From NCBI GenBank assembly GCA_903864935.1, contig CAIPHT010000007.1, forward strand, positions 16,293-80,292: DNA of 64,000 nucleotides, given 5' to 3'. Each line of letters starts with the position of its first letter. Position 1 is the first letter of the stretch. Source of the DNA: Candidatus Vogelbacteria bacterium. Lineage in GTDB: Bacteria; Patescibacteriota; Minisyncoccia; Phycocordibacterales; XYD1-FULL-46-19. Positions 2,712 through 21,536 of this stretch are shown here, in pieces. The position numbers were made by a program, and so were the translations under genes. A model generated the notes under the pieces. The model was not told the origin of the DNA. It did not search any database and worked only from the letters and a program-made list of their open reading frames with translations.

Positions 2712-3536
2712 ATGGAAAATGTTCGAGCAAAAAAATCTTTAGGGCAAAACTGGCTCAAGTCGGAGAGCGCAATCAAGGAGATTGTTAAAGCCGGTGAGAT
2801 TAAGCCAGGGGATTGGGTGCTCGAGATTGGCCCCGGCCGTGGGGTTCTCACCCAAGCCTTACTTCTCGCCGAAGCTCGTGTCGTCGCGGCCGAGAAGGAT
2901 GACCGGCTTATTGATTTCTTGCACGAGAAATTTGCTGAAGAAATAAAGGCAGGTAAACTCATTTTAATTCACGATGACATTCTAAATATCGATTTCTCAG
3001 TAGGGTGGAAGAGTAAGGCCGAACCCTACAAGCTCATCGCCAATATTCCTTATTACATCACCGGCCAAGTGATAAGGAAGTTCTTGAGCGAAGAAGAACT
3101 CCAACCAAGTTTAATGGTCTTAATGGTGCAAAAAGAGGTGGCGCGAAGAATTGTGGCTAGTGATAACAAAGAATCAATCTTATCAATGTCGGTCAAGGTT
3201 TATGGCGAACCAAAATATATCAAGACTGTCCCCGCTGGCGCCTTCGAACCCAAACCAAATGTTGACTCAGCGATTTTACAAATAAAAAATATCTCCCGCG
3301 ACTTCTTTTTAGCCAAAAAAGATTTACTAGAAGGTGACGGCGAAGAAATCAGCGAGGCCAACTTTTTCAAAATCTTAAAAAAAGGTTTCGCCCAAAAACG
3401 TAAGCTATTAAAGGGTAATTTGGGAGTGGGGGAGGAGACCCTGATCAATTGCAAGATCTCCCCCAACGCCCGCGCTGAAGATCTAGCTCTGGAGAACTGG
3501 CAATGTCTAACGCGAGAAATGGGCAAAATTAGCTAA
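2712..3536 (+). CDS. rsmA: 16S rRNA (adenine1518/1519-N6)-dimethyltransferase RsmA/KsgA
   Basis: N-terminal KKSLGQNWL box and SAM-binding VLEIGPGRGVLT motif; typical length (274 aa). Confidence 0.85.
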   Translation: MENVRAKKSLGQNWLKSESAIKEIVKAGEIKPGDWVLEIGPGRGVLTQALLLAEARVVAAEKDDRLIDFLHEKFAEEIKAGKLILIHDDILNIDFSVGWKSKAEPYKLIANIPYYITGQVIRKFLSEEELQPSLMVLMVQKEVARRIVASDNKESILSMSVKVYGEPKYIKTVPAGAFEPKPNVDSAILQIKNISRDFFLAKKDLLEGDGEEISEANFFKILKKGFAQKRKLLKGNLGVGEETLINCKISPNARAEDLALENWQCLTREMGKIS

Positions 3537-3538
3537 GC

Positions 3539-4465
3539 CTACGCTGACATATGGTCGGCGTTGATACGAACGTGCCAGTGAGGACCCGAGCCTCCAGTAT
3601 TGCCATAATTCTCGTCAAGATACTCATCGCCATTAGGCATCACGTAGTGAGTCCCTGAGCTATTAGTATAATGACTCGCCGAATTACTCGTGACATAAGC
3701 ATCCACCCCAGGATCTTTATTGAGATCAAAAACTGGTTTGCCCGTACCATGCTCGCCCGGAGGGGTAGGGTTGCCGGGCTGGCGCGCTCCACTGGTAATC
3801 TCCACATTGCAACCTGGGCCACAATCTTGCGATAAATCTTCGGCCCCGGCAATCGCGTTATTAGGCAATTTGCCAACTGGAGACAAGGTAGGAGAAAGAC
3901 CAGGGGCAATATGAACCCCATTAGCCTCAAGACCCGCCCGAGTTTGAGCTTCTGTTTGGCCACCATCAGCCGGGGTCTCGCTCCCAGGGCCACTAGGCTT
4001 CACAGGGGGCTGAGTGGTGTTAGCCGAGGTCTCTTGATATTCAGAGCCTTGGGTTCCGTTATTATTTTGAGAAGACGAATTACCAGATTGGGCCAAATGA
4101 GTCGCGTCTGAAGTCCCAACAATCGTGATAACCGGATGCATTCCCAAACTAACCCGATAAGGACCCACCTGAATAGCGCATTCTTGTTCTCCCTGGACAT
4201 TGCCAAGAAGCCAATTGCCGGGGAGTTCAATATTGCTGTAAGGATAGAGACGGCTTGTCAGCTTATTAAAGATAACTTTTGGTGGACCAGCGACAGCGGT
4301 ATTGATGATTAATAAATTGCCGCCAGAGGCCGTGCAAATAATGACAAATAACGAAAAGCCCCCAAAAGGCGTTTGCCCGGCCGTCGCCAGAGCCCCTCTT
4401 AAAGGGAAAAGGCAAAAAAGAGCAATTATAAGGGGGAAAATAGTTATCCGAGTAAAAAATCTCAT
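3539..4465 (-). CDS. secreted/membrane-anchored low-complexity (Gly/Ser/Thr/Pro-rich) protein
   Basis: N-terminal hydrophobic signal/anchor (IFPLIIALFCLFPL), long compositionally biased region, C-terminal GSGPHWHVRINADH; co-oriented with the downstream 4469..5230 gene. Confidence 0.5.
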   Translation of the reverse strand: MRFFTRITIFPLIIALFCLFPLRGALATAGQTPFGGFSLFVIICTASGGNLLIINTAVAGPPKVIFNKLTSRLYPYSNIELPGNWLLGNVQGEQECAIQVGPYRVSLGMHPVITIVGTSDATHLAQSGNSSSQNNNGTQGSEYQETSANTTQPPVKPSGPGSETPADGGQTEAQTRAGLEANGVHIAPGLSPTLSPVGKLPNNAIAGAEDLSQDCGPGCNVEITSGARQPGNPTPPGEHGTGKPVFDLNKDPGVDAYVTSNSASHYTNSSGTHYVMPNGDEYLDENYGNTGGSGPHWHVRINADHMSA

Positions 4466-8630: not shown

Positions 8631-10967
8631 ATGTTCAAGCTATTAACAAATAAGAAAAAAATAATTTTAACATTCCTCGTTGGTGTTGGTATCTTAATCA
8701 CCCTCCCAGGTTTAGCTTTAGCCGTTGATGGACCAATTGCAACAGAGGGTTACTCGGTCTCGTTTTCTGCCGGGACTGATTTACCCACCATTCCCGCGGC
8801 CACAGGGATAATGGCTCCAAGACCTTCAACCGAAGCCGAACTCACCCAAAGATCCAATAACGACCAGACCCAAATCGATAATCTCCTCCAACTAAAAAAA
8901 CAGCTGTCCATTGCCAGCGAACAGAGTTTTCTTAAAAATGCCAAGACGGGGGCAGTGGTGGGAGCAGCAAACGGTTATACTTATGGCGGAGTAATAGGAA
9001 CAGGCATTGGAGCAGTCAGGGGCTTCTTTTTATACAATAGCCAGAGAAAAAACTCTATTGCTTTGCTAGACAAAAATGCCGATGCCAAAATTGGAGCTCT
9101 CAAAGATGACCAAGGCGCCTGTCTTGATAAAATAAGTGACATTACTAAAGAGGCCGCTCTTGCCGCGGGCGATCAAGTGGCTCTCCAGGCGGCACTAAAT
9201 AAAGCTGATCAAGCAAAACAAAAAATGGCTCAGTCTCGGGCCGCCTACAATAAAGCCGTCGCTCAATTCAAAACCGTCAACAGCCTCGCCTGTTCGGTTA
9301 ATAATCTGGGTAATTGCGTTCTAGAGGTTACCAGCTGGATAGGGAACATTGTTACTTATGTTTTTGCTCTTCTGTTATGGGCGTCAAGTGGTATTTTTGA
9401 TATTGTCGTCAATTTTTCTATCTTGAATATTGGCACTTGGTTTAAACTACCGTTAGTCGCTAGCGCCTGGCGATTAATGAGAGACTTTGCCAATATTTTC
9501 TTCGTCTTTGTCCTTCTTTATATTGCGATTGGCACAATTTTTGACTTAAAGGGTGTCGGCCAAGGACTTCAAAAGACGATAGTTGGCGTTATTGTTATTG
9601 CCCTCTTAGTTAATTTTAGCGGCTTCTTCGTCCGCGTAGTTGTTGATGCTTCTAATATCATCGCCTATGAATTCTATTCGGGGATAAAAAAGGGGGACTC
9701 CACCTTTTCTTTAGGGACGAACCTAGTCCAAAAAATGGATTTGGGTGCTCGTTTTATTGATCCCAGCTCGTTAGAAGATGCCAAAGCACAGGCCGGGGGG
9801 GTCTTTAATAACTCCCCAATACCAGAGGAAGGGGCTGTCGACAAGCTTAGTTTCCTTAGTATTATTGCGGGAACCTTCGGTAACATTTTAATTATCTTGG
9901 CCACTTCTTTTGTTTTACTCACTGCCGCCATTCTATTTATCATCAGGACAATTACTTTATTGTTTATCTATATTATCGCTCCTTTTGCCTTCGTCTCCAA
10001 GATTATCCCAATAAAGAGTTTCAACAAGTTTGATAAATGGTCTGACACCTTAATCAAACAATCATTCTTTGCTCCGGCTTTTCTTATCCCACTTTATCTG
10101 GTCTTCTTAATCCTTGGCCCGACTGGTATCTCTCATCTGGCCTCCACCGCCAAAGGGACAGAGGGTTGGGCCTTTATTGGACAGGACTCCCTCCTTCTAG
10201 TAATGGCTGACGTTTTCATCCTTGGCTTGATTATTGCCTGCATCTTTATCGCTCAATCTTTAAGCGCTATTGGTTTGGGCTTTGCTACCGGTGTTGCTGG
10301 CAAGGCCAATGCCTTAGGCGTTAGAAATATAGGGAGATTTGTTGGCCGACCGGTGGCAACCGTCGCTGGAAAACTAGGAGGCAATAGACTTATTACTGAG
10401 GCTAAATGGGCAGCATCAAAGACCAGGGTCACCAAAGTTTGGAATTCTGCCTCAATGAAAGAAATTAGGGAGACAAAATTCGGCAAGAAGCTAGGCCAAG
10501 CTATAAAAAATCCAATGCTCTCAGCCAATGACGCTCTTGGTTCAGCCGCTGGTTTGGCAGGGGTAAAAAGTTTCAATGTCTTAGGCAGTTCGGCCGAATC
10601 AAGAAAAGATGCCGCCAAAGCAGAAAAGGAGAAAAAAGAAGAAGACGAAAAAAGAAAGAAAGAAGACAGAGAAAAAGCACTAAAAACCGCCAGTACAGCT
10701 GAAGCCTTAACGATACTTGGTGGTATGACTGACGGCGAGATCAAAGATTTACCAGCTGATATTATTACTTTACCAGCTATTTCTCTAAATCTAGAAAATG
10801 ACCAACTTGTAGCAATCAACAAGGCCGGAAAATTAACCAAAGACCATAAGAAGGCCGTTAAACAAATAATCATGGGAATCGCACCAAAAGGAATACCTGG
10901 CACGATGGGAACACCAGAAGGACAAATCTTCATGATGACGGGAGCGGGAGCGTCCTGGCCGAGATAA
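8631..10967 (+). CDS. polytopic membrane protein, TrbL/VirB6-like T4SS channel component
   Basis: Signal peptide plus a ~200-aa periplasmic coiled-coil region, then at least 6 TM helices (residues ~230-540), then a Lys/Glu-rich cytoplasmic tail (KAEKEKKEEDEKRKKEDREK). Architecture and operon position fit TrbL/VirB6. Start 2 nt after the previous stop. Confidence 0.5.
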   Translation: MFKLLTNKKKIILTFLVGVGILITLPGLALAVDGPIATEGYSVSFSAGTDLPTIPAATGIMAPRPSTEAELTQRSNNDQTQIDNLLQLKKQLSIASEQSFLKNAKTGAVVGAANGYTYGGVIGTGIGAVRGFFLYNSQRKNSIALLDKNADAKIGALKDDQGACLDKISDITKEAALAAGDQVALQAALNKADQAKQKMAQSRAAYNKAVAQFKTVNSLACSVNNLGNCVLEVTSWIGNIVTYVFALLLWASSGIFDIVVNFSILNIGTWFKLPLVASAWRLMRDFANIFFVFVLLYIAIGTIFDLKGVGQGLQKTIVGVIVIALLVNFSGFFVRVVVDASNIIAYEFYSGIKKGDSTFSLGTNLVQKMDLGARFIDPSSLEDAKAQAGGVFNNSPIPEEGAVDKLSFLSIIAGTFGNILIILATSFVLLTAAILFIIRTITLLFIYIIAPFAFVSKIIPIKSFNKFDKWSDTLIKQSFFAPAFLIPLYLVFLILGPTGISHLASTAKGTEGWAFIGQDSLLLVMADVFILGLIIACIFIAQSLSAIGLGFATGVAGKANALGVRNIGRFVGRPVATVAGKLGGNRLITEAKWAASKTRVTKVWNSASMKEIRETKFGKKLGQAIKNPMLSANDALGSAAGLAGVKSFNVLGSSAESRKDAAKAEKEKKEEDEKRKKEDREKALKTASTAEALTILGGMTDGEIKDLPADIITLPAISLNLENDQLVAINKAGKLTKDHKKAVKQIIMGIAPKGIPGTMGTPEGQIFMMTGAGASWPR

Positions 10968-10990: not shown

Positions 10991-11470
10991 ATGAAAATAG
11001 ACATAGAAAAAATGGATGAGGCTTATGCCCAATTACCAAAGAATTTACAAGACTTACTCGATAGTAAAGAAACAGCCGCAACAATTAATAATATTGGGAA
11101 GAAGTATGCTCTTCATATTGACCAATTAGGGCAGTTAGCTATCGTTGTTAGAGCCATTCTCTCGGGCTTAGTTTCAAGACAAAATTCTCTAAGCCAACTT
11201 CGTGAAGAAACCGGCCTCCCAGAGGACACTATCAATCTTATTGTCTATGACCTAAACCAACAAATTTTTTCTAAGATTCGCGAGGAGTTAGAAAAAGAGA
11301 CACTCCCAACACAAAACACGTCGTCCAAACAAATTTTCGAAGAAAAGATGAGCGGCGTGGCCAATGTCCCCAAACAAGAAGTTGAAGTTAAGACGCAAAC
11401 GGGGGATAATGATACTAAGGACGCGACAGTGAAGCCTCCGCGCGATCCATATCGCGAGCCAATTAATTAA
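10991..11470 (+). CDS. hypothetical soluble protein within the T4SS-like operon
   Basis: 159-aa ORF, no TM; its stop overlaps the start of the next gene (ATG at 11470). Confidence 0.5.
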   Translation: MKIDIEKMDEAYAQLPKNLQDLLDSKETAATINNIGKKYALHIDQLGQLAIVVRAILSGLVSRQNSLSQLREETGLPEDTINLIVYDLNQQIFSKIREELEKETLPTQNTSSKQIFEEKMSGVANVPKQEVEVKTQTGDNDTKDATVKPPRDPYREPIN

Positions 11471-11910
11471 TGCAATTCCAATTGCCACAATTTATTGAGG
11501 TCGAGGATACCATTTTTGGACCTCTCACCTTCAAGCAATTCCTCTACCTGGCCGGTGGCGCCGGTTTGGCCTTTATTTGTTATGTTTATCTGCCTATCTA
11601 CTTGGCAATCTTTCCCATTATTGGAGTTATTGCCTTATCAACCCTACTCGCTTTTTATAAATACAATGGACGAAACTTTGTTTATATTGTTGAGTCGGCC
11701 ACCAAATTCTTCTTCTCCAGCAAACTCTATTTATGGAAGCAGACTCTGGCAGGAGAAAGTAAAAGAACGGTAGTGGTGAAGGAAGAGAAGAGCGCGCCGG
11801 AGGGTATTAATCTCCCTCGCTTATCAGCCAGCAAATTAAAAGATCTCACTTGGAGCCTTGACGTCCAAAACAGTCCCGAAGCTGAGCAACAAAATAATTA
11901 TGGCACTTAA
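11470..11910 (+). CDS. PrgI/VirB3-like small membrane protein
   Basis: N-terminal motif EDTIFGPLTFKQFLYLAGGAGLAFICYV followed by two TM helices; matches the PrgI-family (VirB3 analogue) hallmark of an F/L-rich RQF[LI]YL box preceding the TM hairpin. Confidence 0.5.
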   Translation: MQFQLPQFIEVEDTIFGPLTFKQFLYLAGGAGLAFICYVYLPIYLAIFPIIGVIALSTLLAFYKYNGRNFVYIVESATKFFFSSKLYLWKQTLAGESKRTVVVKEEKSAPEGINLPRLSASKLKDLTWSLDVQNSPEAEQQNNYGT

Positions 11911-12577
11911 AGATTTTATCCCCAACAATAAATCCACCCAAGACTTCGTTCCAATCAAGGAGATTAAGAACGGAGTGGTGATTCTTAAGGATGGCTCTTT
12001 GCGAGCCGTGGTCATGGTCTCCTCGCTCAACTTTGGTCTCAAGTCAGACGACGAGAAAGTGGCAATCATCAGCGCCTTCCAAAACTTCCTTAACTCTATT
12101 GATTTCACTATTCAGATTTCCATTCAATCGAGACGCCTCAATATTGAGCCCTATCTCCAAACTCTAAGAGATCGCATGGCCGAGCAAACAAATGAGTTGC
12201 TCAAGGTCCAAATTAGAGAATACATAGAGTTTATTAGGTTCTATACTGATCATCAGAACGTCATGACCAAAACTTTCTTTGTCGTCGTTTCTTACGAACC
12301 AGCTTTAATTGCTGGGGGAGAGAGAGGTTTCCTCTCCAAGATTTTTAACAGCCAGAAAGCGAATTCCAAGAGCGCCATCATTAACGAATTCGACCAGAAT
12401 GTCGCGCAGCTAAATCAACGAACTAACGTTATCAAGAGCGGCCTAAGCCGGATGGGCTTAGTTAGCGCCGTGCTAGGAACCGAAGAGCTAATTGAGCTTT
12501 ATTTCAAATTATTCAATCCCGGGGAGAACGATGCCCCAGCCAGTAGCAATAATGGCTCAACCGCCGAAGCCAAATAA
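11900..12577 (+). CDS. VirB4/TrbE-family N-terminal domain protein (separate ORF)
   Basis: Motif VPIKEIKNGVVILKDGSLRAVVMVSSLNFGLKSDDEKVAIISAFQNFLNSIDFTIQISIQ matches the conserved N-terminal domain of Gram-positive-type VirB4 (PrgJ/TcpF-like). Alternative upstream ATG at 11858. Ends 5 nt before the ATPase ORF, in a different frame. Confidence 0.5.
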   Translation: MALKDFIPNNKSTQDFVPIKEIKNGVVILKDGSLRAVVMVSSLNFGLKSDDEKVAIISAFQNFLNSIDFTIQISIQSRRLNIEPYLQTLRDRMAEQTNELLKVQIREYIEFIRFYTDHQNVMTKTFFVVVSYEPALIAGGERGFLSKIFNSQKANSKSAIINEFDQNVAQLNQRTNVIKSGLSRMGLVSAVLGTEELIELYFKLFNPGENDAPASSNNGSTAEAK

Positions 12578-12582
12578 GTTAT

Positions 12583-14412
12583 ATGAATATCCCTTTTCTA
12601 AACCAAAAAAATAAGAACGAGGAGCTGATTCCCATCCTCCCGCAAGACATTTACCAAGTTGGAGTCCTAGAGCTTCAAGACATTATTGCTCCCTCGGCCC
12701 TACGCGTGACACCCAAGAATCTTAATTTGGGCGAGAAGATTGCACGTACTCTCTTTGTCATTTCTTATCCTCGCTTCTTGAGCGAAGAGTGGTTCTCACC
12801 CATTATCAACCTAGATAGTGTCTTCGACATTTCAATCTTTGTCCACCCGCTCGACACAACAACAACTCTCCGCGCCCTGCAAAAGAAGATTGCCGAGGTT
12901 GAGAGCCAAATTATGGTCCGCGAACAGAAGGGGATGGTCCGTGACCCAATGCTTGATACCGCCCAAGCTGATATCGAGAGCCTGCGCGATCAATTAATGC
13001 AGGCCACCGAGAAAATGTTCAGTGTCGGCCTCTATCTCACCCTCTACGGTGAGAGTGAAGAAGAATTAGATCATACCGAGGGGCAAATTAAATCCGTTCT
13101 CGATGCCAAGCTAATTTATCTTAAGACCGCCCTCTTCCAGCAAGAAGAAGGGTTCAAGAGTGTGGCCCCCTTCGCTACCGACTACCTCGAGGTCAATAAT
13201 CGACTTAATTCCACACCCCTTTCTAGTATCTTCCCCTTTGTCTCCTTTGACTTAACTTCTAATAAGGGAATTCTCTATGGGCGTAATATGCATAATTCTT
13301 CTCTTGTCATTTTCGACCGTTTCTCGCTAGAGAACTACAACTCGGTCATTTTTGCCAAATCGGGTTCGGGGAAATCTTTTGCCACTAAACTGGAGATTCT
13401 TCGTAGTCTCATGTTTGATATTGATGTTCTAGTTATTGACCCAGAAAGGGAGTACGAATTCTTGGCCGAAGCTGTCGGTGGACGATATTTCAACATTTCT
13501 CTCGCCTCTGAGCACCACATTAACCCCTTCGACCTGCCTTTTGCCCGCGAAGATGAGTCACCGGCCGACGTTCTTCGGTCTAACATCATCAATCTGGTCG
13601 GTCTCTTCCGTATTATGTTGGGCGGTCTTAGCCCTGAAGAAGACTCAATCCTCGACAATGCCATCTCCGAGACCTATGCGCTTAAAGATATCACGCCGGA
13701 TTCCGATTTTACTAACAAACCGGCGCCCCTCTTGTCAGATCTCGAATTAGTCTTGGCCGGCATGGAGGGGGGAGATTCGCTGGCCCAGAGATTACTTAAG
13801 TATACTCAAGGCACCTGGGCGGGCTTTCTCAACAAACCAACCAACGTTGATATCAACAAGAAATTCGTCGTTTTCTCTATCCGCGACATGGAGGACGAAC
13901 TTAAGCCAGTGGCCATGTATATCGTCATGCACCACATTTGGAACGCGATTAGACGCAATCTCAAGCGCCGCCTCCTGGTTGTCGACGAGGCTTGGGTTAT
14001 GATGAAGGATGACGATACCGCCTCTTTCCTCTTCTCCTTGGTGAAGAGAGGCCGTAAGTATTATCTGGGCGTCGCCACTATTACTCAAGACGTGGGAGAC
14101 TTCATTCGTTCACAATACGGTCTGCCCATCATCACCAACTCGTCTATTCAAATTCTCTTGAAACAGTCACCAGCCTCTATTGATGAGGTTCAGAAGACCT
14201 TTAATCTTACCGATGAAGAGAAATACTTCCTCTTGGAGTCACCGGTCGGGAATGGAATTTTTATTGCTGGTCTGAAGAGGGTAGAGATCAGGATTGAAGC
14301 CTCTTATACCGAGGAACAAATTGTTACCTCTGATCCTTCACAAATTCTCGCCATTAAGAAAGCCAAGTTAGATTTCGATACCGCCAAACAAACTGAGCAA
14401 ACCAATGCCTAA
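12583..14412 (+). CDS. virB4: VirB4/TrbE/TraC-family conjugative-type ATPase (C-terminal ATPase part)
   Basis: Walker A AKSGSGKS, Walker B LLVVDEAWVMM, ATITQDVGDF motif (VirB4 family); 609 aa. Confidence 0.85.
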   Translation: MNIPFLNQKNKNEELIPILPQDIYQVGVLELQDIIAPSALRVTPKNLNLGEKIARTLFVISYPRFLSEEWFSPIINLDSVFDISIFVHPLDTTTTLRALQKKIAEVESQIMVREQKGMVRDPMLDTAQADIESLRDQLMQATEKMFSVGLYLTLYGESEEELDHTEGQIKSVLDAKLIYLKTALFQQEEGFKSVAPFATDYLEVNNRLNSTPLSSIFPFVSFDLTSNKGILYGRNMHNSSLVIFDRFSLENYNSVIFAKSGSGKSFATKLEILRSLMFDIDVLVIDPEREYEFLAEAVGGRYFNISLASEHHINPFDLPFAREDESPADVLRSNIINLVGLFRIMLGGLSPEEDSILDNAISETYALKDITPDSDFTNKPAPLLSDLELVLAGMEGGDSLAQRLLKYTQGTWAGFLNKPTNVDINKKFVVFSIRDMEDELKPVAMYIVMHHIWNAIRRNLKRRLLVVDEAWVMMKDDDTASFLFSLVKRGRKYYLGVATITQDVGDFIRSQYGLPIITNSSIQILLKQSPASIDEVQKTFNLTDEEKYFLLESPVGNGIFIAGLKRVEIRIEASYTEEQIVTSDPSQILAIKKAKLDFDTAKQTEQTNA

Positions 14413-14803: not shown

Positions 14804-15848
14804 CTATTTAAGTATTATAATTAAAGAGAAAATGACTAAAAACTTTTTTTTAACTTTAATTCTAGCATTATTATTTATACCGACGACAATTCTGGCCGTC
14901 ACCGAGACAGGGGTTGGTAGTAATGTCTTGGCCACCATCACCCCCACTAACCCTCGGCCGGGGGATATCGTTAATATTTCCTTAAGCGGGTATGGCTTCG
15001 ATACGAATCAGAGTTATTTTAAATGGATGAGAGATGGTAAGGACGTTTTGTCTGGCAATGGACAGAGTCAATACTCCTTCCAACTTGGGCGCCTAGGGGT
15101 CGCCACAAAAATTGATGTGACAATTTTCTCGGACACCAGAGCTCTAGCGACAAAATCATTCTATTTTGAACCCGCCGACATTGATTTTGTTTGGCAAGCG
15201 GACACCTTTGTCCCGCCTTTTTACAAAGGAAAAGAGCGAGCCAGTGCCGGAGCGAATATTAAAATACTCGCCACCCCTTATCTTATTAATAATTTAGGTC
15301 AAGCAGAGAATAAATCTAACCTTAATTACTCTTGGTCACAAGATGGTAAGCCGCTCAACGATCGTTCAGGGCTGGGCAAATCAAACATAACTATTGCCAC
15401 TGGGCCAGACAAGAATCAGATTAAAATTGATTTAGCTGTTAGCACAATTGATAAAAGCCGTTCAACTAACAAATCTTTAATTATAAATTTAGATAAGCCA
15501 GAACTGGCTTTCTATGAGATTAAGCCTCTCGCGGGAACTAATTTTTTAAAACAAGTTATCGGGAGCTATGACCTCTATGATGATGAGGCAAGTTTCTTGG
15601 CTATCCCTTATTTCTGGCCCCGCAATCAAATAAATAACATCAATTATCTTTGGGCAATTAACGGCCTCCAGGCTTCTCCACAAAAAGATCCTTGGTCGCT
15701 AACCGTCCGCGAACCAAGCGGGGGAGCGGGGCAAAACGAGATAAATCTTCAGGTTAGTGATGCCCAAAATAGCTTAGGCCCTGTCAGCAACCACTTTAAT
15801 ATTAAATTTGGTAATAATTTGTTAAAATTCAATAATGCAAACCAATAA
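14793..15848 (+). CDS. secreted protein (signal peptide), T4SS-like operon
   Basis: Signal peptide MTKNFFLTLILALLFIPTTILAV; 351 aa, beta-rich composition. Confidence 0.5.
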   Translation: MAINYLSIIIKEKMTKNFFLTLILALLFIPTTILAVTETGVGSNVLATITPTNPRPGDIVNISLSGYGFDTNQSYFKWMRDGKDVLSGNGQSQYSFQLGRLGVATKIDVTIFSDTRALATKSFYFEPADIDFVWQADTFVPPFYKGKERASAGANIKILATPYLINNLGQAENKSNLNYSWSQDGKPLNDRSGLGKSNITIATGPDKNQIKIDLAVSTIDKSRSTNKSLIINLDKPELAFYEIKPLAGTNFLKQVIGSYDLYDDEASFLAIPYFWPRNQINNINYLWAINGLQASPQKDPWSLTVREPSGGAGQNEINLQVSDAQNSLGPVSNHFNIKFGNNLLKFNNANQ

Positions 15849-16218
15849 CTCAAACCTACTGGCCGCCACCGCTGGGTACACCCTGCTCGAACCCTCAGTG
15901 GTTCAACCTGACCCATCCAAGGCTTCAGGTACTCCAATCAGTCTTAGTCTCTACCTTAAGGGGGCCTATGTCACAATGTTTATTGTTGTCATTATTGGGG
16001 CGATTTTGGTTATGGTTTATTATGGTATTGGTTATATGATGTCGGATGTCGCGAGTTTCAAAGGAACAGCCAAAAGCCGTCTGACAAAAGTCTTTATTGG
16101 TATCGGTATCGCCATCCTCTCCTTTATCTTGCTCAACCAGATTAACCCGGACTTGGCTGGTAATCTAGGCAAAAATAGCAACAATATCATCCTCAACGGT
16201 CTTAACTCTTTATTTTAA
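15835..16218 (+). CDS. pilin-like small membrane protein (TrbC/VirB2-like topology)
   Basis: Long N-terminal leader followed by two hydrophobic helices (FIVVIIGAILVMVYYGIGYMM and VFIGIGIAILSFILL) separated by a short polar loop, ~120 aa; matches VirB2-type pilin architecture (inference). Confidence 0.4.
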   Translation: MQTNNSNLLAATAGYTLLEPSVVQPDPSKASGTPISLSLYLKGAYVTMFIVVIIGAILVMVYYGIGYMMSDVASFKGTAKSRLTKVFIGIGIAILSFILLNQINPDLAGNLGKNSNNIILNGLNSLF

Positions 16219-16221
16219 AAA

Positions 16222-17433
16222 ATGAAAAAAGCGCTAACTATAATTCTCCTAGTCCTTATCGCTGGTTCTTTAGGCACTCTTGGTTTTTTTATTTATAAGC
16301 AAAGTCAATCTACTACAAGAACTGTCACCAATACCCCAGTCTCGGAAGAGTCACCCTTCCCAATGGGGAGTAGTACTAACCCCGTTACCACCAACTATAA
16401 CTCCGGCAATAGTTCAACTAATTATCCTGAGGCTAATCAGCCCCTCGGCGTTCCTAACCAACCAGCCTTAAGCCAAATGAGTTTGGCGGGTATAACAGTT
16501 CTTTCAATTAACAAAAATCTCCAAACTTTTTTTACGGATAAAGAAACAGGTAATATATATTCTCTCGACGGCCAAAATAATCCCACGAGACTTAGTCTCG
16601 TGACCCTCCCCGGAGTTGAGGAATCTTATCTTGGTTATAGAAACAACAGTTTAGGTATTATCTTGCGACAAATCAAAGGGTTAAATATTGTAAATGAAAT
16701 CGGCCAAATTAAACTAGACAGCTCAGCCCCGACAACATTAAACCCCCACCTTTGGGATATCTCTCTCAGTTCTCTTGCCCTCTCTCCCAACAGCCAAAAA
16801 ATTTCTTTCTTAACCGAGATAACGGATAAAACCATACTTTATACGACAGATTGGTCCCTCCAAAAACCTAAGAAACTCTGGAGCTCACCACTCTCCAGTT
16901 GGAATATTTCATGGCCCAAAGATAGTTTAATTGTCATTACCTCTAAACCCTCTTATGATTACCCCGGTGTGGCTTATTTCCTAGATGCCCAAACCGGCAA
17001 AGAAACGAAGATATTAAACAACATTAATGGGCTAAATCTGTCTGTTTCGCCCAATGGAGACAAACTTATCTATACCAAGAGTTTACTTAGTGGCTTTAGC
17101 TTGTACTCTTATGATACAAAAGTAGAGGAAAGTCGTCTTCTCGATTTCAACACTCTTCCCGATAAATGTGTTTGGTCTGACAATGATACTTTATATTGTG
17201 CAGTACCAAAAAATATCCCAACTGGGCACTACCCCGATAATTGGTATCAAGGCAAAATTAGTTTCTCTGACAATGTTTGGAAAATTGATTTAAAACAAAA
17301 GACAACTACCATCGTCAGCACCCTAAAGGGGGATTATGATTTGTATAACCTAGTCATAAACAAACAAACAGGCTGGCTCTATGCCCTTAATCGAGGAGAT
17401 AATAAGCTCCAAGCCTTTAGTTTGAAGCCTTAG
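16222..17433 (+). CDS. secreted beta-propeller-like protein (TolB/PD40-like repeats)
   Basis: Signal peptide plus Ser/Thr/Asn-rich linker; C-terminal repeats such as LSVSPNGDKLIYTKS; last gene of the operon. 3' end overlaps yidC convergently by 17 nt. Confidence 0.5.
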   Translation: MKKALTIILLVLIAGSLGTLGFFIYKQSQSTTRTVTNTPVSEESPFPMGSSTNPVTTNYNSGNSSTNYPEANQPLGVPNQPALSQMSLAGITVLSINKNLQTFFTDKETGNIYSLDGQNNPTRLSLVTLPGVEESYLGYRNNSLGIILRQIKGLNIVNEIGQIKLDSSAPTTLNPHLWDISLSSLALSPNSQKISFLTEITDKTILYTTDWSLQKPKKLWSSPLSSWNISWPKDSLIVITSKPSYDYPGVAYFLDAQTGKETKILNNINGLNLSVSPNGDKLIYTKSLLSGFSLYSYDTKVEESRLLDFNTLPDKCVWSDNDTLYCAVPKNIPTGHYPDNWYQGKISFSDNVWKIDLKQKTTTIVSTLKGDYDLYNLVINKQTGWLYALNRGDNKLQAFSLKP

Positions 17434-18178
17434 GGGCCCTTAGGACCGCGTCCTGGTCCTTAATCTTCTTAATAACCACCACCTCATAGATGGCGGAGAA
17501 AACGTTACTGGTGACCCAATAAAGGGAGATGGCCGCGGGTAAAGTAAAGGCGATAACCGCCGTCATCACCGGCATAGCATAACGCATTTGGAAATCCATA
17601 CTCTTGGCTAAATCCTGGCCAAAAGAGACCTCTTTTTTGTCTGAAGACTTATTTTTTTCTCGCTTGGGTAGAGAAAGTGTAACCTGGAGATATTGAGTTA
17701 CCCCAGTTAAAAAGGCGAGAGCATAATTATGACTAACCGTTAATTTAACAAAACCCAAGAAAATTGTGTTGATATGATTGGGGATAGTAATAAAAGAGTA
17801 AACAAGGTTGATGTCAATAGTAAAACTCTGGCGAAAGACATAAAAAAGGGAAATAATAATAGGAATTTGGATAAGCAAAACCAAAAAGCTGCTAAAGGGG
17901 TTAATCTTCTCTTTTTTATATAATTCCATCGTCAGGCGAGACTGTTCGGGTAAATTATCTTTGTTTTGCTCTTTTATCGCCTTCAATTCACCCTCGACAG
18001 CCTTCATTTTTATTTGAGTCATTACCGAGGTCTTATAGAGAGGGAAAATGACAATTTTAACTAGAATAGTAAGAAGAATAATGGCCAAACCAAGATCTGC
18101 CCCAGGGAGAATCGCCGTGAGCCAAACCAGAAGATTGTAGAGGGGGATAAAAACAATTATTTTGAAAAAATTAATCAT
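17417..18178 (-). CDS. yidC: membrane protein insertase YidC (short form)
   Basis: Motifs ILLTILVKIVIFPL and MQIKMKAVEGELKAIKEQ, five TM segments, conserved position downstream of rnpA. Confidence 0.85.
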   Translation of the reverse strand: MINFFKIIVFIPLYNLLVWLTAILPGADLGLAIILLTILVKIVIFPLYKTSVMTQIKMKAVEGELKAIKEQNKDNLPEQSRLTMELYKKEKINPFSSFLVLLIQIPIIISLFYVFRQSFTIDINLVYSFITIPNHINTIFLGFVKLTVSHNYALAFLTGVTQYLQVTLSLPKREKNKSSDKKEVSFGQDLAKSMDFQMRYAMPVMTAVIAFTLPAAISLYWVTSNVFSAIYEVVVIKKIKDQDAVLRAPKASN

Positions 18179-18195
18179 ATTTTGCTATTCTAACA

Positions 18196-18552
18196 CTATT
18201 TTAAAATTTTAGCTGTTCTAATTAAAGCCAAGACCTCTTCCTCAAACTGTTTGAATTCAAGTCTAGAAAGATCCTCTTTTACTTGGATGATAATATCTGA
18301 ATTATTTACCACTTCGGGCCAGATTTTTTCTAAAATAGCGTGGAGACGCCTCTTGATCAAATGGCGACGGGCCGAGAGGGGAACAACCTTATTCCCAATA
18401 ACCACCGCCACCCTCGGACTTTGGCCATAATTCTCCTCTGTGGATAACCTGTTATGAACTCGAATATTAAGACTAGGGGACGAGAAAACCCTGTTTTGTT
18501 TCAAAACAAGGGGTAAAAGCTCTTTATTTATACGGTATTTAACCGGAAGCAT
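18196..18552 (-). CDS. rnpA: ribonuclease P protein component
   Basis: RNR-like basic motif ARRHLIKRRL; 118 aa; immediately downstream of rpmH. Confidence 0.8.
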   Translation of the reverse strand: MLPVKYRINKELLPLVLKQNRVFSSPSLNIRVHNRLSTEENYGQSPRVAVVIGNKVVPLSARRHLIKRRLHAILEKIWPEVVNNSDIIIQVKEDLSRLEFKQFEEEVLALIRTAKILK

Positions 18553-18555
18553 TAA

Positions 18556-18690
18556 TTAGACAGCCAATTTATGGCGACCTTTGAGACGGCGTCGGGCCAA
18601 AACCTTAGCCCCGGTTGGGGACTTAGTTCGAGCCAAAAAACCATGGGTAGTGGCTCGTTTCTTCTTTTTAGGATTATACGTAAAAGACAT
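18556..18690 (-). CDS. rpmH: 50S ribosomal protein L34
   Basis: Not in the ORF track (44 aa). Minus-strand translation is [44 protein letters not shown], the canonical L34 sequence. Sits 3 nt upstream of rnpA. Confidence 0.85.
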
Positions 18691-18820
18691 GGGGATAGTA
18701 TACCAGAAAAAAAGCTTTTAGCAATATCCACAAGTAATCCACCACATATAAACAGAATAGGTAAGATTGCTAGTTTTTCCACAAGGCCTATAATTGAAGC
18801 AAGTAAGATAATTATTTTAT
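18691..18820. promoter_or_regulatory. dnaA upstream region with DnaA-box-like 9-mers
   Basis: aTATCCACA at 18725..18733 and TTTTCCACA at ~18776..18784 (consensus TTATCCACA); divergent rpmH/dnaA promoter region. Confidence 0.4.
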
Positions 18821-20197
18821 ATGGAAGGAATTTTAGACAACAAGAAACTCTGGGAAAATGCCCTTAATGAGATCGAGTTGTCTATCTCTAAAGCTAACTT
18901 CGGCACCTGGTTTAAAAACACCCACATTATTAAATGTGATGACGGAATTATTCAATTAGCTGTTCCCAATGCTTTTGTTCGTGACTGGTTAGCTAATAAG
19001 TATCACAAGTTCATCTTGAAAGCTCTCCGCGATATGGAAGATGGGGTAAGATCTATCGAATACGTAATTAGCCGCCCCGACGACCAATCATCTAGTAATA
19101 AGGCTAAGATTGGTGTCAACAAAGACAACCTTCTTAGTAATGACCTTGGTTTAAAGGATCTCTATATTAACAAAGAGAGTAATCTTAATCCTAAATATGA
19201 TTTTAGCACCTTCATTGTTGGATCCTTTAATGATGTGGCCTATGCCGCTGGTCAAGCGGTAATTAAGAATCCAGGGACTGTTCATAATCCACTCTTTATT
19301 TATGGTGGAACAGGTTTGGGTAAGACCCACCTTCTCCAAGCAATTGGCAACCAGATTAAAAAGAATAATCCTAATAAATCAGTTTATTATATTAGTTCGG
19401 AGAACTTCATTGTGGAACTTATTAGTAATATTCAGAACAATAAAGGTAATAGCTTTAAGGAAAAGTTCCGCAAATATGACCTTCTTATTATTGATGATGT
19501 CCAATTTTTCTCTAACAAAGAGCATTCTCAAGAAGAACTCTTCCATTTATTCAATCATTATTACGATAACAATAAACAAATTATCTTTTCTTCAGATAAA
19601 CCCCCTAAATTTATTCCTAACCTTGAGGAGAGACTGCGTTCACGCTTCGAAGGGGGGATTATTATTGATATTTCCAAGCCTGATTATGAATCACGCTTAG
19701 CTATCCTAAGAAATAAGAATAAAACCTTAGAAATAAAGATTCCTGATGAGGTTCTCGAGTATCTTGCTTCTGTTATTCAAGACAGTATTAGAGAACTAGA
19801 GGGTTCTCTTAACTCTATTATTCTCCAATCTCAGGCTAAAAATAAAGAGATTACCTTACAAGAAGTGAAGGGGATTATTAAGAATAATATCAAACCTCAG
19901 AAAACTATTTCTATTAAAGACGTTATGCATGTTGTGGCTGATTACTATAATATTGAAGAGGCAATTCTCTATGAGAAAACTCGTCGTAAAGAGGTGGTTA
20001 AACCACGACAAATTATTATGTATATATTAAGAGAAGACTTTAATACTTCTTACCCTTATATTGGCCAAAAATTAGGTGGGAGAGACCACACAACAGTTAT
20101 TCACGCTTACGAAAAAATAAAAGAAGAAGTAAAAAATAATTCAGCCCTTGTCCAAGAGTTAGAACAAATTAGATCACTTCTTTACGCTAATAATTAA
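18821..20197 (+). CDS. dnaA: chromosomal replication initiator protein DnaA
   Basis: AAA+ Walker A GGTGLGKTHLLQAIGN, sensor motifs, C-terminal DNA-binding domain (TVIHAYEKI); 458 aa. Confidence 0.95.
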   Translation: MEGILDNKKLWENALNEIELSISKANFGTWFKNTHIIKCDDGIIQLAVPNAFVRDWLANKYHKFILKALRDMEDGVRSIEYVISRPDDQSSSNKAKIGVNKDNLLSNDLGLKDLYINKESNLNPKYDFSTFIVGSFNDVAYAAGQAVIKNPGTVHNPLFIYGGTGLGKTHLLQAIGNQIKKNNPNKSVYYISSENFIVELISNIQNNKGNSFKEKFRKYDLLIIDDVQFFSNKEHSQEELFHLFNHYYDNNKQIIFSSDKPPKFIPNLEERLRSRFEGGIIIDISKPDYESRLAILRNKNKTLEIKIPDEVLEYLASVIQDSIRELEGSLNSIILQSQAKNKEITLQEVKGIIKNNIKPQKTISIKDVMHVVADYYNIEEAILYEKTRRKEVVKPRQIIMYILREDFNTSYPYIGQKLGGRDHTTVIHAYEKIKEEVKNNSALVQELEQIRSLLYANN

Positions 20198-20432
20198 ATT
20201 TCTGTTAATAACCTGTGGAGAAGATTGTTAATAAAAAGATATTAAAAACAGGATAAGTTATAGAAAAATAAAAATATTATTTTAGAAGTAAAATTAATCT
20301 TAAGTAATCAACAGTTGAATAAAATTTATTATCTCAAATATGTTGCCAAATAAAGATATTCTGAGTTCTCCACATATCCCCAACTATAACAATAATAAGT
20401 TTCTTTTTAATTAAAAATAATTTATAAATACT
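20198..20432. other. candidate oriC (dnaA-dnaN intergenic, AT-rich with inverted DnaA-box-like pair)
   Basis: Very AT-rich 235-bp spacer. TGTGGAGAA at 20214..20222 and its reverse complement TTCTCCACA at 20366..20374 flank an AT-rich stretch. Confidence 0.45.
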
Positions 20433-21536
20433 ATGAAGCTAGAATGTCTAAAAGATAAATTTAAAGATGCTATTATCTTAGCCGAGAAGATAAGTGGGCG
20501 TAACTTAACCTTACCAATTCTAAGTACTATCCTGCTTGAGACTAAGAATAAGAATTTAATAATCAGAGCGACAAACTTAGAAGTGGGGATAGAAATAGAG
20601 ATTCCGGCCAAGATTGAAACTAGTGGTTTAGTGGCGGTTAATGCGAGTATTCTCTTGAATTATCTTAATAATCTTACTAAAGAAGAAAAAATAACCCTTG
20701 AGCTAGATAATAATAATCTTAAATTAAGTACTGAATCAACCCAAACGATTATTAAGAGTCTGGCGCCTGAAGATTTTCCTATTATTCCTAAAATTGCTCA
20801 GGAAGGTGGTTTTGAGATTAAGGCAGTTGATTTTGTCTCAGGCTTACAAGCTGTCTCTTTTGCAAGTGCAGTATCTGATATAAAACCAGAGATATCTAGC
20901 GTTTATCTTCATAATGAGAATCAAGATTTGATTTTTGTTGCCACCGACTCCTTTAGATTAGCCGAGAAAACAATAAATAATATCCCTAATTTAAGTAATC
21001 TTAATATTATTATTCCCTTTAAGAACGTGAACGAATTGATTAGAGTTCTAACTAGTTTGGGGACGAACCAAGTTGTTGTTAGTTATAATAAGAATCAATT
21101 AGCTATCCAGACAGACAATCTCTATCTTACTTTAAGGGTAATTGATGGTAATTATCCCGATTATAAACAAATCATCCCAACCAAATTTAATACTGAATTA
21201 AATATCAAAAAAGAAGATTTTGTTGGGTTACTTAAACTCTCAACAATTTTCTCTGATCGCTTTAATCAAATTGATATAACCTTTAAACCAGATTCTAATA
21301 CACTAGAAGTTTTATCTCATAACCAAGAAGTAGGGGAGAATAAATCGTCTTTAGTAATTAAAATTAAGGGCGAACCATTAATTATTAGCTTTAATGCTAA
21401 GTATTTACTAGATTGCCTTAGTTCCTTTAGTGATAATGTAATTAATCTACGTTTTACTGAGACAAGTCGACCTCTAATGATAGAGGGGACAACGGATAAC
21501 TCTTTCCATTATCTTGTGATGCCGATCAATAAGTAA
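20433..21536 (+). CDS. dnaN: DNA polymerase III subunit beta (sliding clamp)
   Basis: Three-domain clamp of 367 aa; N-terminus MKLECLKDKFKDAI...LTLPILSTILLE; conserved position after dnaA. Confidence 0.9.
   Translation: MKLECLKDKFKDAIILAEKISGRNLTLPILSTILLETKNKNLIIRATNLEVGIEIEIPAKIETSGLVAVNASILLNYLNNLTKEEKITLELDNNNLKLSTESTQTIIKSLAPEDFPIIPKIAQEGGFEIKAVDFVSGLQAVSFASAVSDIKPEISSVYLHNENQDLIFVATDSFRLAEKTINNIPNLSNLNIIIPFKNVNELIRVLTSLGTNQVVVSYNKNQLAIQTDNLYLTLRVIDGNYPDYKQIIPTKFNTELNIKKEDFVGLLKLSTIFSDRFNQIDITFKPDSNTLEVLSHNQEVGENKSSLVIKIKGEPLIISFNAKYLLDCLSSFSDNVINLRFTETSRPLMIEGTTDNSFHYLVMPINK

What the first reader, a model, noticed from the sequence alone, without database searches (positions are those of the whole stretch)
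11900..14412. VirB4 encoded as two ORFs (N-terminal domain and ATPase domain) separated by 5 nt and a frame change
ORF 11900..12577 carries the hallmark N-terminal VirB4 domain (…VPIKEIKNGVVILKDGSLRAVVMVSSLNFGLKSDDEKVAIISAFQNFLNSI…). It stops at TAA, and 5 nt later ORF 12583..14412 starts with the Walker A/B ATPase domain in another frame. The combined length (~835 aa) equals a normal VirB4. This is either a genuine split gene, a programmed frameshift, or an assembly/sequencing frameshift (pseudogene).
Basis: seen in the sequence. Interest (0 to 1): 0.55.

Follow-up and report, generated by a model that had tools for sequence, protein, structure and literature searches.

The report
Conserved two-gene VirB4 secretion ATPase
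The type IV secretion ATPase VirB4 is truly encoded here as two neighbouring genes, a layout conserved across thousands of Patescibacteria and already described in the literature, so it is real but ordinary.

Summary
ORF1 (11900-12577, 225 aa) stops at TAA. Five bases later ORF2 (12583-14412, 609 aa) starts in another frame. ORF1 is the first ~200 residues of a VirB4 N-terminal domain. ORF2 is the rest of that domain plus the P-loop ATPase, so the break lies inside the N-terminal domain, not at the ATPase boundary.

It is not a sequencing error or a programmed frameshift.
- The 120 best of more than 7,800 ORF1 homologues are all stand-alone proteins of 209-239 aa.
- In 76 of 76 species-representative genomes the two halves are separate genes. 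Gaps run from -14 to +497 nt, and all three relative frames occur (20/32/24).
- In three genomes an unrelated gene sits between the halves.
- The junction is identical in an independent assembly.

Fused relatives (787-898 aa, seen in several samples) are colinear with ORF1+ORF2. The break falls in their variable linker. Staphylococcal TrsD/TrsE and pXO1 are split at the same point.

The arrangement is published: TrsD homologues beside VirB4 in Patescibacteria, near dnaA (PMC12102498). The two proteins most likely assemble non-covalently, together with the upstream PrgI (VirB3-like) protein; this step is inferred. Already known; low interest.

The parts
11470..11910 (+). PrgI-family (VirB3-like) small membrane protein, 146 aa. 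Its end overlaps the ORF1 start by 11 nt.
   Evidence: Pfam PF12666 PrgI, 3.9e-10, 40.6 bits against a cutoff of 27. The same gene sits directly upstream of the ORF1 homologue in Woesebacteria L001 and in the fused-VirB4 loci L086, L087 and L090.
11900..12577 (+). ORF1: TrsD-like stand-alone protein, equivalent to the first half of the VirB4 N-terminal domain (225 aa, stop TAA).
   Evidence: NCBIfam N-terminal matches to VirB4 models and to TrsD/TraD. Precomputed Pfam PF26593 'TraC-like' on the identical protein P0001. More than 7,800 homologues, the best 120 all 209-239 aa. The AlphaFold2 model (pLDDT 76) has as its 14 best PDB matches only TrwK/VirB4 chains, at probability 0.99-1.00.
12578..12582 (+). 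5-nt spacer GTTAT between the stop of ORF1 and the start of ORF2.
   Evidence: Read directly from the sequence. The + strand has no promoter-like or terminator-like site at the junction. In relatives the spacer varies from -14 to +497 nt, with 1 nt the commonest value.
12583..14412 (+). ORF2: TrsE-like VirB4, made of the second half of the N-terminal domain (about residues 1-225) plus the P-loop ATPase C-terminal domain (609 aa).
   Evidence: NF045971 CD1110-family VirB4, 375 bits against a cutoff of 325, model positions 179-732 of 752. PDB 4AG5 VirB4 C-terminal domain, 4e-42, aligned to residues 226-582; TrwK 445-732 aligned to residues 252-546. Foldseek top hits are 4AG5/4AG6 and TrwK.
13354..13377 (+). 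Walker A motif AKSGSGKS (ORF2 residues 258-265).
   Evidence: G261, G263, K264 and S265 are invariant in alignments A1 and A2.
13972..13989 (+). Walker B motif LLVVDE (ORF2 residues 464-469).
   Evidence: D468 and E469 are invariant in alignments A1 and A2.
8631..10967 (+). 778-aa protein at the position where a VirB6-like channel subunit would be expected. This assignment rests on position only.
   Evidence: No family hit. The many hydrophobic stretches are my reading of the translation, not a prediction from a tool. A 791-aa gene occupies the same position in Woesebacteria L001. Role inferred, not tested.

Best explanation
This is a genuine, ancient two-gene form of VirB4 in the chromosomal, origin-proximal type IV secretion system of a Patescibacteria (CPR) bacterium. 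ORF1 is a TrsD-like protein that corresponds to the first ~200 residues of the VirB4 N-terminal domain. ORF2 is a TrsE-like VirB4 that carries the remainder of that domain and the Walker A/B ATPase. The two are translated as separate polypeptides from one tightly packed operon (PrgI, ORF1, ORF2; 11-nt overlap, then 5-nt gap). This much is shown. What follows is inferred. The two proteins most likely associate non-covalently to rebuild a complete VirB4 subunit. ORF1 would supply the membrane-proximal surface that, in the R388 system, is wrapped by VirB3 (here PrgI) and mediates VirB4 dimerisation. ORF2 would supply hexamerisation and ATP hydrolysis to drive assembly and transport by the T4SS.
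For: Evidence for two separate, conserved genes:
- The 120 best ORF1 homologues are all 209-239 aa and 52-100% identical, and come from Paceibacteria, Vogelbacteria, Woesebacteria and others.
- 76 of 76 species-representative loci have a stop codon and then an ATG. Relative frames are 0/1/2 = 20/32/24, and gaps run from -14 to +497 nt.
- A 23S-rRNA-IVS-family gene is inserted between the halves in L006, L009 and L043.
- Synteny is conserved as far as Woesebacteria, where the two genes overlap by 41 nt instead.
- The junction is identical in an independent assembly.

Evidence that the halves are complementary parts of one VirB4:
- Their model coordinates do not overlap: CD1110 2-121 versus 179-732, TIGR00929 3-173 versus 276-728, Pfam TraC_F_IV 14-177 versus 276-352.
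- The ORF1 fold matches TrwK/VirB4 only.
- Fused relatives P0122 (797 aa), P0128 (898 aa, 5 contigs) and P0132 (787 aa, 3 contigs) are colinear with ORF1+ORF2. The break falls in their variable linker.

Evidence for physical association (Rosetta-stone fusions):
- PrgI + N-module + ATPase are fused in P0186, P0247 and P0250.
- PrgI + N-module are fused in an Embleya plasmid.

The same break point occurs in S. aureus TrsD/TrsE and in pXO1.

Literature:
- TrsD homologues lie beside VirB4 in Patescibacteria, and the TrsD homologue is listed as essential in Southlakia epibionticum (PMC12102498).
- In R388, VirB3 wraps the VirB4 N-terminal domain, and that domain mediates dimerisation (PMC9259494).
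Against: - No direct evidence here shows that ORF1 and ORF2 bind each other or PrgI. No multimer prediction or experiment was possible.
- The ORF2 model is of low confidence in its first 270 residues (pLDDT 59 overall).
- ORF1 scores below the curated cutoffs of NF041427 (28 against 200 bits) and of Pfam TraC_F_IV (23.5 against 28.1).
Confidence: 0.85

Rival explanations
1. Assembly or sequencing frameshift: a normally fused virB4 appears broken by an indel error, or is a recent pseudogene.
For: Fused VirB4 genes do exist in some related lineages. Errors of this kind also occur in these metagenomes: in assembly L004 the ATPase gene itself is broken into 417 + 174 aa.
Against: All 76 species-level relatives are split at the same place. 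The 120 best ORF1 homologues are stand-alone. The junction sequence is identical in an independent assembly. ORF2 has a proper ATG at the position where homologues start, most of them with MG[IL]F-type N-termini. No VirB4-like sequence continues past the ORF1 stop in another frame: the ORF2 frame is open for only 30 nt before its ATG.
Confidence: 0.01
2. Programmed ribosomal frameshift or stop-codon bypass produces a fused VirB4 from the two ORFs.
For: The gap is very short (5 nt), the frames differ, and fused homologues exist.
Against: The 25-nt stretch where both frames are open (12553-12577) has no X_XXY_YYZ or other slippery motif (my reading of the sequence). The relative frame in relatives is unconstrained (20/32/24), gaps reach 497 nt, and some contain a whole gene. 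Recoding sites are conserved in position and frame; this junction is not.
Confidence: 0.02
3. ORF1 is an autonomous accessory protein that descends from a VirB4 N-terminus but no longer acts as part of the VirB4 subunit (for example an adaptor or regulator). ORF2 would then work as a naturally short VirB4.
For: TrsD has no assigned function, and in Gracilibacteria it is unlinked from virB4 (PMC12102498). Several ORF2-type proteins carry long disordered N-terminal extensions instead of the module. In an approximate tree, fused and split states are interleaved.
Against: The two parts cover VirB4 models in strict complementarity. They are colinear with fused forms. Gene order and tight spacing next to PrgI are conserved across classes. 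Fusions occur to either neighbour. The paper reports that the TrsD homologue is essential along with other T4SS genes.
Confidence: 0.1

Closest known systems
TrsD + TrsE of staphylococcal conjugative plasmids (pGO1/pSK41 type; MPF_FATA class)
   Same: The gene order is the same: VirB3-like TrsC, then TrsD (227 aa), then TrsE (670 aa), with a 20-nt gap. ORF1 aligns with TrsD almost end to end (residues 10-216 against 31-227). ORF2 aligns with TrsE from residue 8 against residue 5, so the break point is homologous.
   Different: Identity is only 21% and 25%. ORF1 is far below the NF041427 cutoff (28 against 200 bits). The staphylococcal system is plasmid-borne and conjugative, typed with a MOBQ relaxase. 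This one is chromosomal, lies next to the replication origin, and has no relaxase or coupling protein among the window ORFs I scanned.
Patescibacteria T4SS as described by Quinonero-Coronel et al. 2025 (PMC12102498) and in Southlakia epibionticum (PMC10633639)
   Same: TrsD homologue, VirB4 and PrgI/VirB3 are clustered near dnaA. The window's proteins fall in this group: homologues are named Paceibacterota, Vogelbacteria and Woesebacteria.
   Different: Nothing essential differs. The paper calls TrsD remotely homologous to the VirB4 N-terminal portion. It does not use the words 'split' or 'truncated' (0 occurrences each), so it does not appear to present the pair as a fission.
Single-chain MPF_FATA VirB4 (CD1110 family, NF045971) and fused Patescibacteria-type VirB4 (P0122, P0128, P0132)
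   Same: They are colinear with ORF1+ORF2. ORF2 is 46-57% identical to the fused relatives. PrgI lies upstream, and yidC-rnpA-dnaA-dnaN lie downstream in L086.
   Different: They are one polypeptide. A variable linker of roughly 10-100 residues replaces the stop, spacer and start.
TrwK/VirB4 of plasmid R388 (PDB 7O41-7O43, 8RTB, 8RTD)
   Same: The ORF1 fold and the ORF2 fold both match TrwK. The ATPase core aligns by sequence, ORF2 252-546 against TrwK 445-732.
   Different: TrwK is a diderm system and a single chain of 823 aa, with the N-terminal domain at 15-400 and the C-terminal domain at 400-823. ORF1 has no sequence-level match to it.

Membership tests
VirB4 family T4SS ATPase (MPF_FATA, CD1110 type) | C-terminal P-loop ATPase domain with Walker A and Walker B motifs | tested here: met
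   AKSGSGKS at residues 258-265 and LLVVDE at 464-469, with invariant G261, G263, K264, S265, D468 and E469. 4AG5 at 4e-42. Foldseek 4AG6 at 3.6e-19.
VirB4 family T4SS ATPase (MPF_FATA, CD1110 type) | Score above the curated family cutoff | tested here: met
   ORF2 scores 375.2 bits against the NF045971 cutoff of 325. It is below the cutoffs of TIGR00929 (122.8 against 643) and NF045975 (271.6 against 590).
VirB4 family T4SS ATPase (MPF_FATA, CD1110 type) | Complete ~400-aa N-terminal domain on the same polypeptide as the ATPase | tested here: not met
   Model positions 2-121 (CD1110) and 3-173 (TIGR00929) are on ORF1. Positions 179-732 and 276-728 are on ORF2. The domain is complete only across the two proteins.
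VirB4 family T4SS ATPase (MPF_FATA, CD1110 type) | Encoded with other T4SS membrane components (VirB3/PrgI, VirB6-like) | tested here: met
   PrgI lies directly upstream. The VirB6-like and pilin-like neighbours are assigned only by position or by weak hits.
TrsD/TraD family (NF041427) and Pfam PF26593 TraC-like | Stand-alone protein of ~200-230 aa homologous to the N-terminal portion of VirB4 | tested here: met
   ORF1 is 225 aa. The 120 best homologues are 209-239 aa. It matches VirB4 N-terminal model positions and the TrwK fold.
TrsD/TraD family (NF041427) and Pfam PF26593 TraC-like | Profile score above the curated cutoff | tested here: inconclusive
   NF041427 gives 28.1 bits against a cutoff of 200, which is not met. 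PF26593 is listed as a precomputed hit on the identical protein P0001, but against the local Pfam copy did not return it, so no score could be read.
TrsD/TraD family (NF041427) and Pfam PF26593 TraC-like | Located between a VirB3-like gene and an N-terminally short VirB4 (TrsE type) | tested here: met
   The order is PrgI, ORF1, ORF2. The same order is found in S. aureus and pXO1.
Programmed ribosomal frameshift gene | Slippery site in the overlap, with frame relation and position conserved among relatives | tested here: not met
   No slippery heptamer at 12553-12577 (my reading). Frames are 20/32/24 and gaps run from -14 to +497 nt in 76 relatives.
Frameshifted pseudogene or assembly error | The break is peculiar to this sequence while close relatives carry an intact fused gene | tested here: not met
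   76 of 76 species-level relatives at 69-77% ORF2 identity are split. The junction is identical in L004.

The most novel reading that the evidence does not exclude
The N-terminal half-domain of VirB4 may be an evolutionarily mobile module. It has been repeatedly detached from and re-attached to either neighbour. It occurs stand-alone, fused to the ATPase, fused to PrgI/VirB3, or with all three fused. A rough tree gives about 25 state changes among 84 tips whose state could be called. The break always falls at one disordered linker. In split systems the module could then act as a separate adaptor whose stoichiometry relative to the ATPase hexamer can differ from 1:1. Published descriptions treat TrsD only as a protein of unknown function with remote similarity to VirB4.
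Probability: 0.25. Interest if true: 0.35.

Novelty: already known. Interest (0 to 1): 0.15.

Why it matters
For annotation, it means this locus should not be flagged as a pseudogene or frameshift. The pair should be named a TrsD-like VirB4 N-terminal subunit plus a VirB4 ATPase. For biology, the Patescibacteria T4SS has been shown to be essential for epibiotic growth in the one cultivated member tested (PMC12102498, PMC10633639). A naturally bisected VirB4 also offers a convenient way to study what the first half of the VirB4 N-terminal domain does. The arrangement itself is already published, so the finding adds little that is new.

Tried and rejected
- Sequence search of ORF1, alone and as a 35-sequence profile, against PDB chains found nothing meaningful. 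Only the fold comparison linked it to TrwK.
- I tested whether the break separates two tandem homologous sub-domains. ORF1 and ORF2 residues 1-175 show a similar order of strands and helices. However, hhalign of the two family alignments gave a probability of 0.2%, so the idea is not supported at sequence level. A structural superposition could not be run.
- The first broad ATPase alignment (A1) was too diverse for the locus scan. A closer one (A2) worked.
- The N-terminal extensions of P0123, P0125, P0126, P0127 and P0129 were tested as possible divergent N-modules. They are low-complexity, disordered sequence with no match to the ORF1 profile.
- The Shine-Dalgarno check was uninformative. 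About 23 of 27 genes in the window have no such motif, so its absence before ORF2 says nothing.
- The promoter and terminator scan showed nothing above shuffled expectation and nothing on the + strand at the junction.
- The ORF2 structure model was too weak in its first 270 residues (pLDDT 59) to map the second half of the N-terminal domain residue by residue.
- The main text of Guglielmini et al. 2014 (PMC4027160) contains no mention of TrsD. The remote-homology statement is therefore cited from PMC12102498 only.
Full report
**Observation.**
- ORF1 runs from ATG 11900 to TAA 12575-12577 and encodes 225 aa.
- The spacer is GTTAT, at 12578-12582.
- ORF2 runs from ATG 12583 to 14412 and encodes 609 aa, in a different frame.
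- ATG 12583 is the only start codon in the ORF2 frame after that frame's upstream stop at 12550-12552.
- The 81-nt stretch across the junction is identical in an independent metagenome assembly, L004.

**What the two proteins are.**
- ORF1 matches only the N-terminal ends of VirB4 models: NF045975 positions 100-234 (3.5e-12), CD1110 2-121, TIGR00929 3-173, TrbE 3-172.
- ORF1 also matches the stand-alone TrsD/TraD family (1.5e-6).
- Pfam TraC_F_IV positions 14-177 of 375 match ORF1 just below the cutoff.
- The identical database protein P0001 carries the precomputed family PF26593 'TraC-like'.
- An AlphaFold2 model of ORF1 was built from 35 homologues (pLDDT 76, pTM 0.62). Its 14 best PDB matches are all chains of TrwK/VirB4 of R388, at probability 0.99-1.00. 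The next match drops to probability 0.35.
- ORF2 matches the rest of VirB4: CD1110 179-732 of 752 (6.4e-112, above the curated cutoff), TIGR00929 276-728, and TraC_F_IV 276-352.
- The solved VirB4 C-terminal domain 4AG5 aligns to ORF2 226-582. TrwK 445-732 aligns to ORF2 252-546.
- Walker A is at ORF2 residues 258-265 and Walker B at 464-469. Both are invariant among relatives.
- In R388 the VirB4 N-terminal domain spans residues 15-400 (PMC9259494).
- The break therefore bisects the N-terminal domain. It does not separate that domain from the ATPase.

**Is the split real?**
- ORF1 has more than 7,800 database homologues. The best 120 are 52-100% identical and all 209-239 aa long. They come from Paceibacteria, Vogelbacteria, Woesebacteria and other Patescibacteria.
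- A Woesebacteria genome keeps the gene order: 791 aa, 198 aa, PrgI, TraC-like 214 aa, ATPase 628 aa, and further on yidC. There the two halves overlap by 41 nt.
- An unbiased scan of one genome per species, using the ATPase half as query, found 574 relatives. I examined the best 80, which are 69-77% identical to ORF2.
- In all 76 loci where both halves were recovered, ORF1 has its own stop codon and the ATPase has its own ATG.
- The distance between them ranges from -14 to +497 nt. The median is about 6 nt and the commonest value is 1 nt.
- The relative reading frame is 0, 1 or 2 in 20, 32 and 24 loci.
- In L006, L009 and L043 a 124-132-aa gene lies between the halves. The L009 copy scans as Pfam 23S_rRNA_IVP at 6.7e-34. 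I judged the other two to be the same kind of gene from their sequences only.
- These facts exclude a sequencing artefact and a recent pseudogene.
- They also exclude a programmed frameshift. In addition, no slippery heptamer exists in the 25 nt where both frames are open.

**Are the halves one VirB4?** Fused relatives exist and are real.
- P0122 (797 aa) lies in a Patescibacteria-type context: PrgI, fused VirB4, then yidC, rnpA, dnaA and dnaN.
- P0128 (898 aa) occurs on 5 contigs, from at least three sequencing runs.
- P0132 (787 aa) occurs on 3 contigs.
- These proteins are colinear with ORF1+ORF2. The break point coincides with a length-variable, low-complexity linker. It lies between the conserved '...ELIELYFxxYNP' end of ORF1 and the 'DIIAPS...RTLFV..YPR...GW' motif near the start of ORF2.
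- Among the 150 best 50%-identity cluster representatives of ORF2:
  - 54 are fused to an ORF1-like module;
  - 56 begin like ORF2;
  - 13 have other N-terminal extensions, and the nine I examined are low-complexity sequence with no match to the ORF1 profile;
  - 27 are fragments.
- The module is also found fused to PrgI plus the ATPase (P0186, P0247, P0250).
- It is fused to PrgI alone in an Embleya plasmid.
- Such fusions to either neighbour are classical Rosetta-stone evidence that PrgI, the N-module and the ATPase contact each other.
- A rough neighbour-joining tree interleaves fused and split states, with about 25 parsimony changes. The figure is approximate, because the tips are cluster representatives without taxon labels.

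**Known counterparts.**
- On a pGO1/pSK41-type S. aureus plasmid the order is TrsC (VirB3-like), TrsD (227 aa), a 20-nt gap, then TrsE (670 aa).
- ORF1 aligns with TrsD nearly end to end. ORF2 aligns with TrsE from residue 8 against residue 5. The break point is therefore the same.
- B. anthracis pXO1 has PrgI, a 304-aa ORF1-like protein (6e-14) and a 699-aa ATPase.
- Quinonero-Coronel et al. 2025 (PMC12102498) already report the following:
  - TrsD homologues, described as remotely homologous to the N-terminal portion of VirB4, are the most abundant T4SS component in Patescibacteria (2,272 homologues in 2,221 assemblies), and 1,664 of them are associated with virB4.
  - The clusters usually lack a relaxase and often lie near dnaA.
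  - The TrsD homologue of Southlakia epibionticum is listed as essential.
- The window fits this picture. yidC (17417-18178, minus strand), rnpA, dnaA (18821-20197) and dnaN follow the cluster directly. None of the other window ORFs I scanned is a relaxase or a coupling protein.

**Mechanism.**
- Shown: these are two separately terminated and initiated cistrons in a compact operon, conserved across the phylum, and together they cover one VirB4.
- Inferred from the fusions and from the R388 structure: ORF1 docks onto the N-terminal part of ORF2 to complete the N-terminal domain and binds PrgI at the membrane, while ORF2 forms the ATPase ring.
- The R388 facts behind this inference are that VirB3 wraps the N-terminal domain of the central VirB4 and that VirB4 dimer contacts are made entirely by N-terminal domains.
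- The tight spacing suggests coupled translation. The genome hardly uses Shine-Dalgarno motifs, so the absence of one before ORF2 is uninformative.

**Verdict.**
- The 'genuine split gene' reading is supported. The frameshift and pseudogene readings are rejected.
- The arrangement is already documented for Patescibacteria and for Gram-positive conjugative plasmids, so novelty and interest are low.
- The only mildly new points here are three: the explicit complementarity of the halves, the shared break point with TrsD/TrsE, and the apparent repeated fusion and fission of the N-module.

Noticed in passing
window 17417-21536: The T4SS cluster abuts the replication-origin gene set: yidC (17417-18178, minus strand), rnpA (18196-18552, minus strand), dnaA (18821-20197, plus strand) and dnaN (20433-21536, plus strand). 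This matches the published origin-proximal location of Patescibacteria T4SS.
   Followed up: partly
L004 3684-5513 (independent assembly of the same organism): In this assembly the ATPase gene itself is called as two pieces of 417 and 174 aa, although ORF1 and the ORF1/ORF2 junction are identical to the window. This is probably a true assembly or sequencing frameshift in that assembly and is absent from the window.
   Followed up: partly
P0121, P0134, P0139, P0141, P0269 (ATPase homologues): Insertions of about 500-650 aa interrupt the ATPase at the position of ORF2 residues ~265-270, at the Walker A loop. In P0121 the insert scans as an intein: Intein_splicing plus a LAGLIDADG endonuclease. 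The other four were not scanned.
   Followed up: partly
L006 2975-3419, L009 3486-3982, L043 1498-1978: A 124-132-aa gene is inserted exactly between the TrsD-like gene and the VirB4 gene in three species. The L009 copy is a four-helix-bundle '23S rRNA intervening sequence protein' (PF05635, 6.7e-34). The other two look like the same family by eye.
   Followed up: partly
P0123, P0125, P0126, P0127, P0129 (closest ATPase relatives at 50-54% identity): These split-type ATPases carry N-terminal extensions of 230-490 aa. The extensions are low-complexity sequence rich in Q, N, P, S, E and K, with no similarity to the ORF1 module. Their function is unknown.
   Followed up: partly
L093 865-1914 (Embleya sp. 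plasmid NZ_CP108778.1): The annotated 'PrgI family protein' of 349 aa contains an ORF1-like module (1.4e-13), so it is a PrgI + VirB4-N-module fusion. An XF1762-family gene and a separate 643-aa ATPase follow it.
   Followed up: partly
window-wide start-codon regions: About 23 of 27 examined genes have no Shine-Dalgarno-like motif in the 25 nt before the start codon. The leaders are A/T-rich instead.
   Followed up: no
ORF1 residues 19-132 and ORF2 residues 40-156: The two predicted structures show the same order of secondary-structure elements (three strands, helix, strand, two helices, strand). This hints at an internal duplication in the VirB4 N-terminal domain, but profile-profile comparison gives no support (probability 0.2%).
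   Followed up: partly
L045 about 3278-3925: The ORF1 homologue of this species has an internal in-frame stop at 3728-3730, and the C-terminal part continues after it. This may be a pseudogene or a sequencing error in that genome.
   Followed up: no
window 30039-31736 (minus strand) and 49620-50693 (plus strand): Type IV pilus genes are also present in the window: a PilB-type T2SSE ATPase and PilM.
   Followed up: no
window 15835-16218: This 127-aa hydrophobic protein downstream of the ATPase has a weak, sub-threshold match to the Mbov_0395 pilin-like conjugal transfer family (0.0042, 16.7 bits against a cutoff of 40). It may be one of the VirB2-like pilins reported for Patescibacteria.
   Followed up: no
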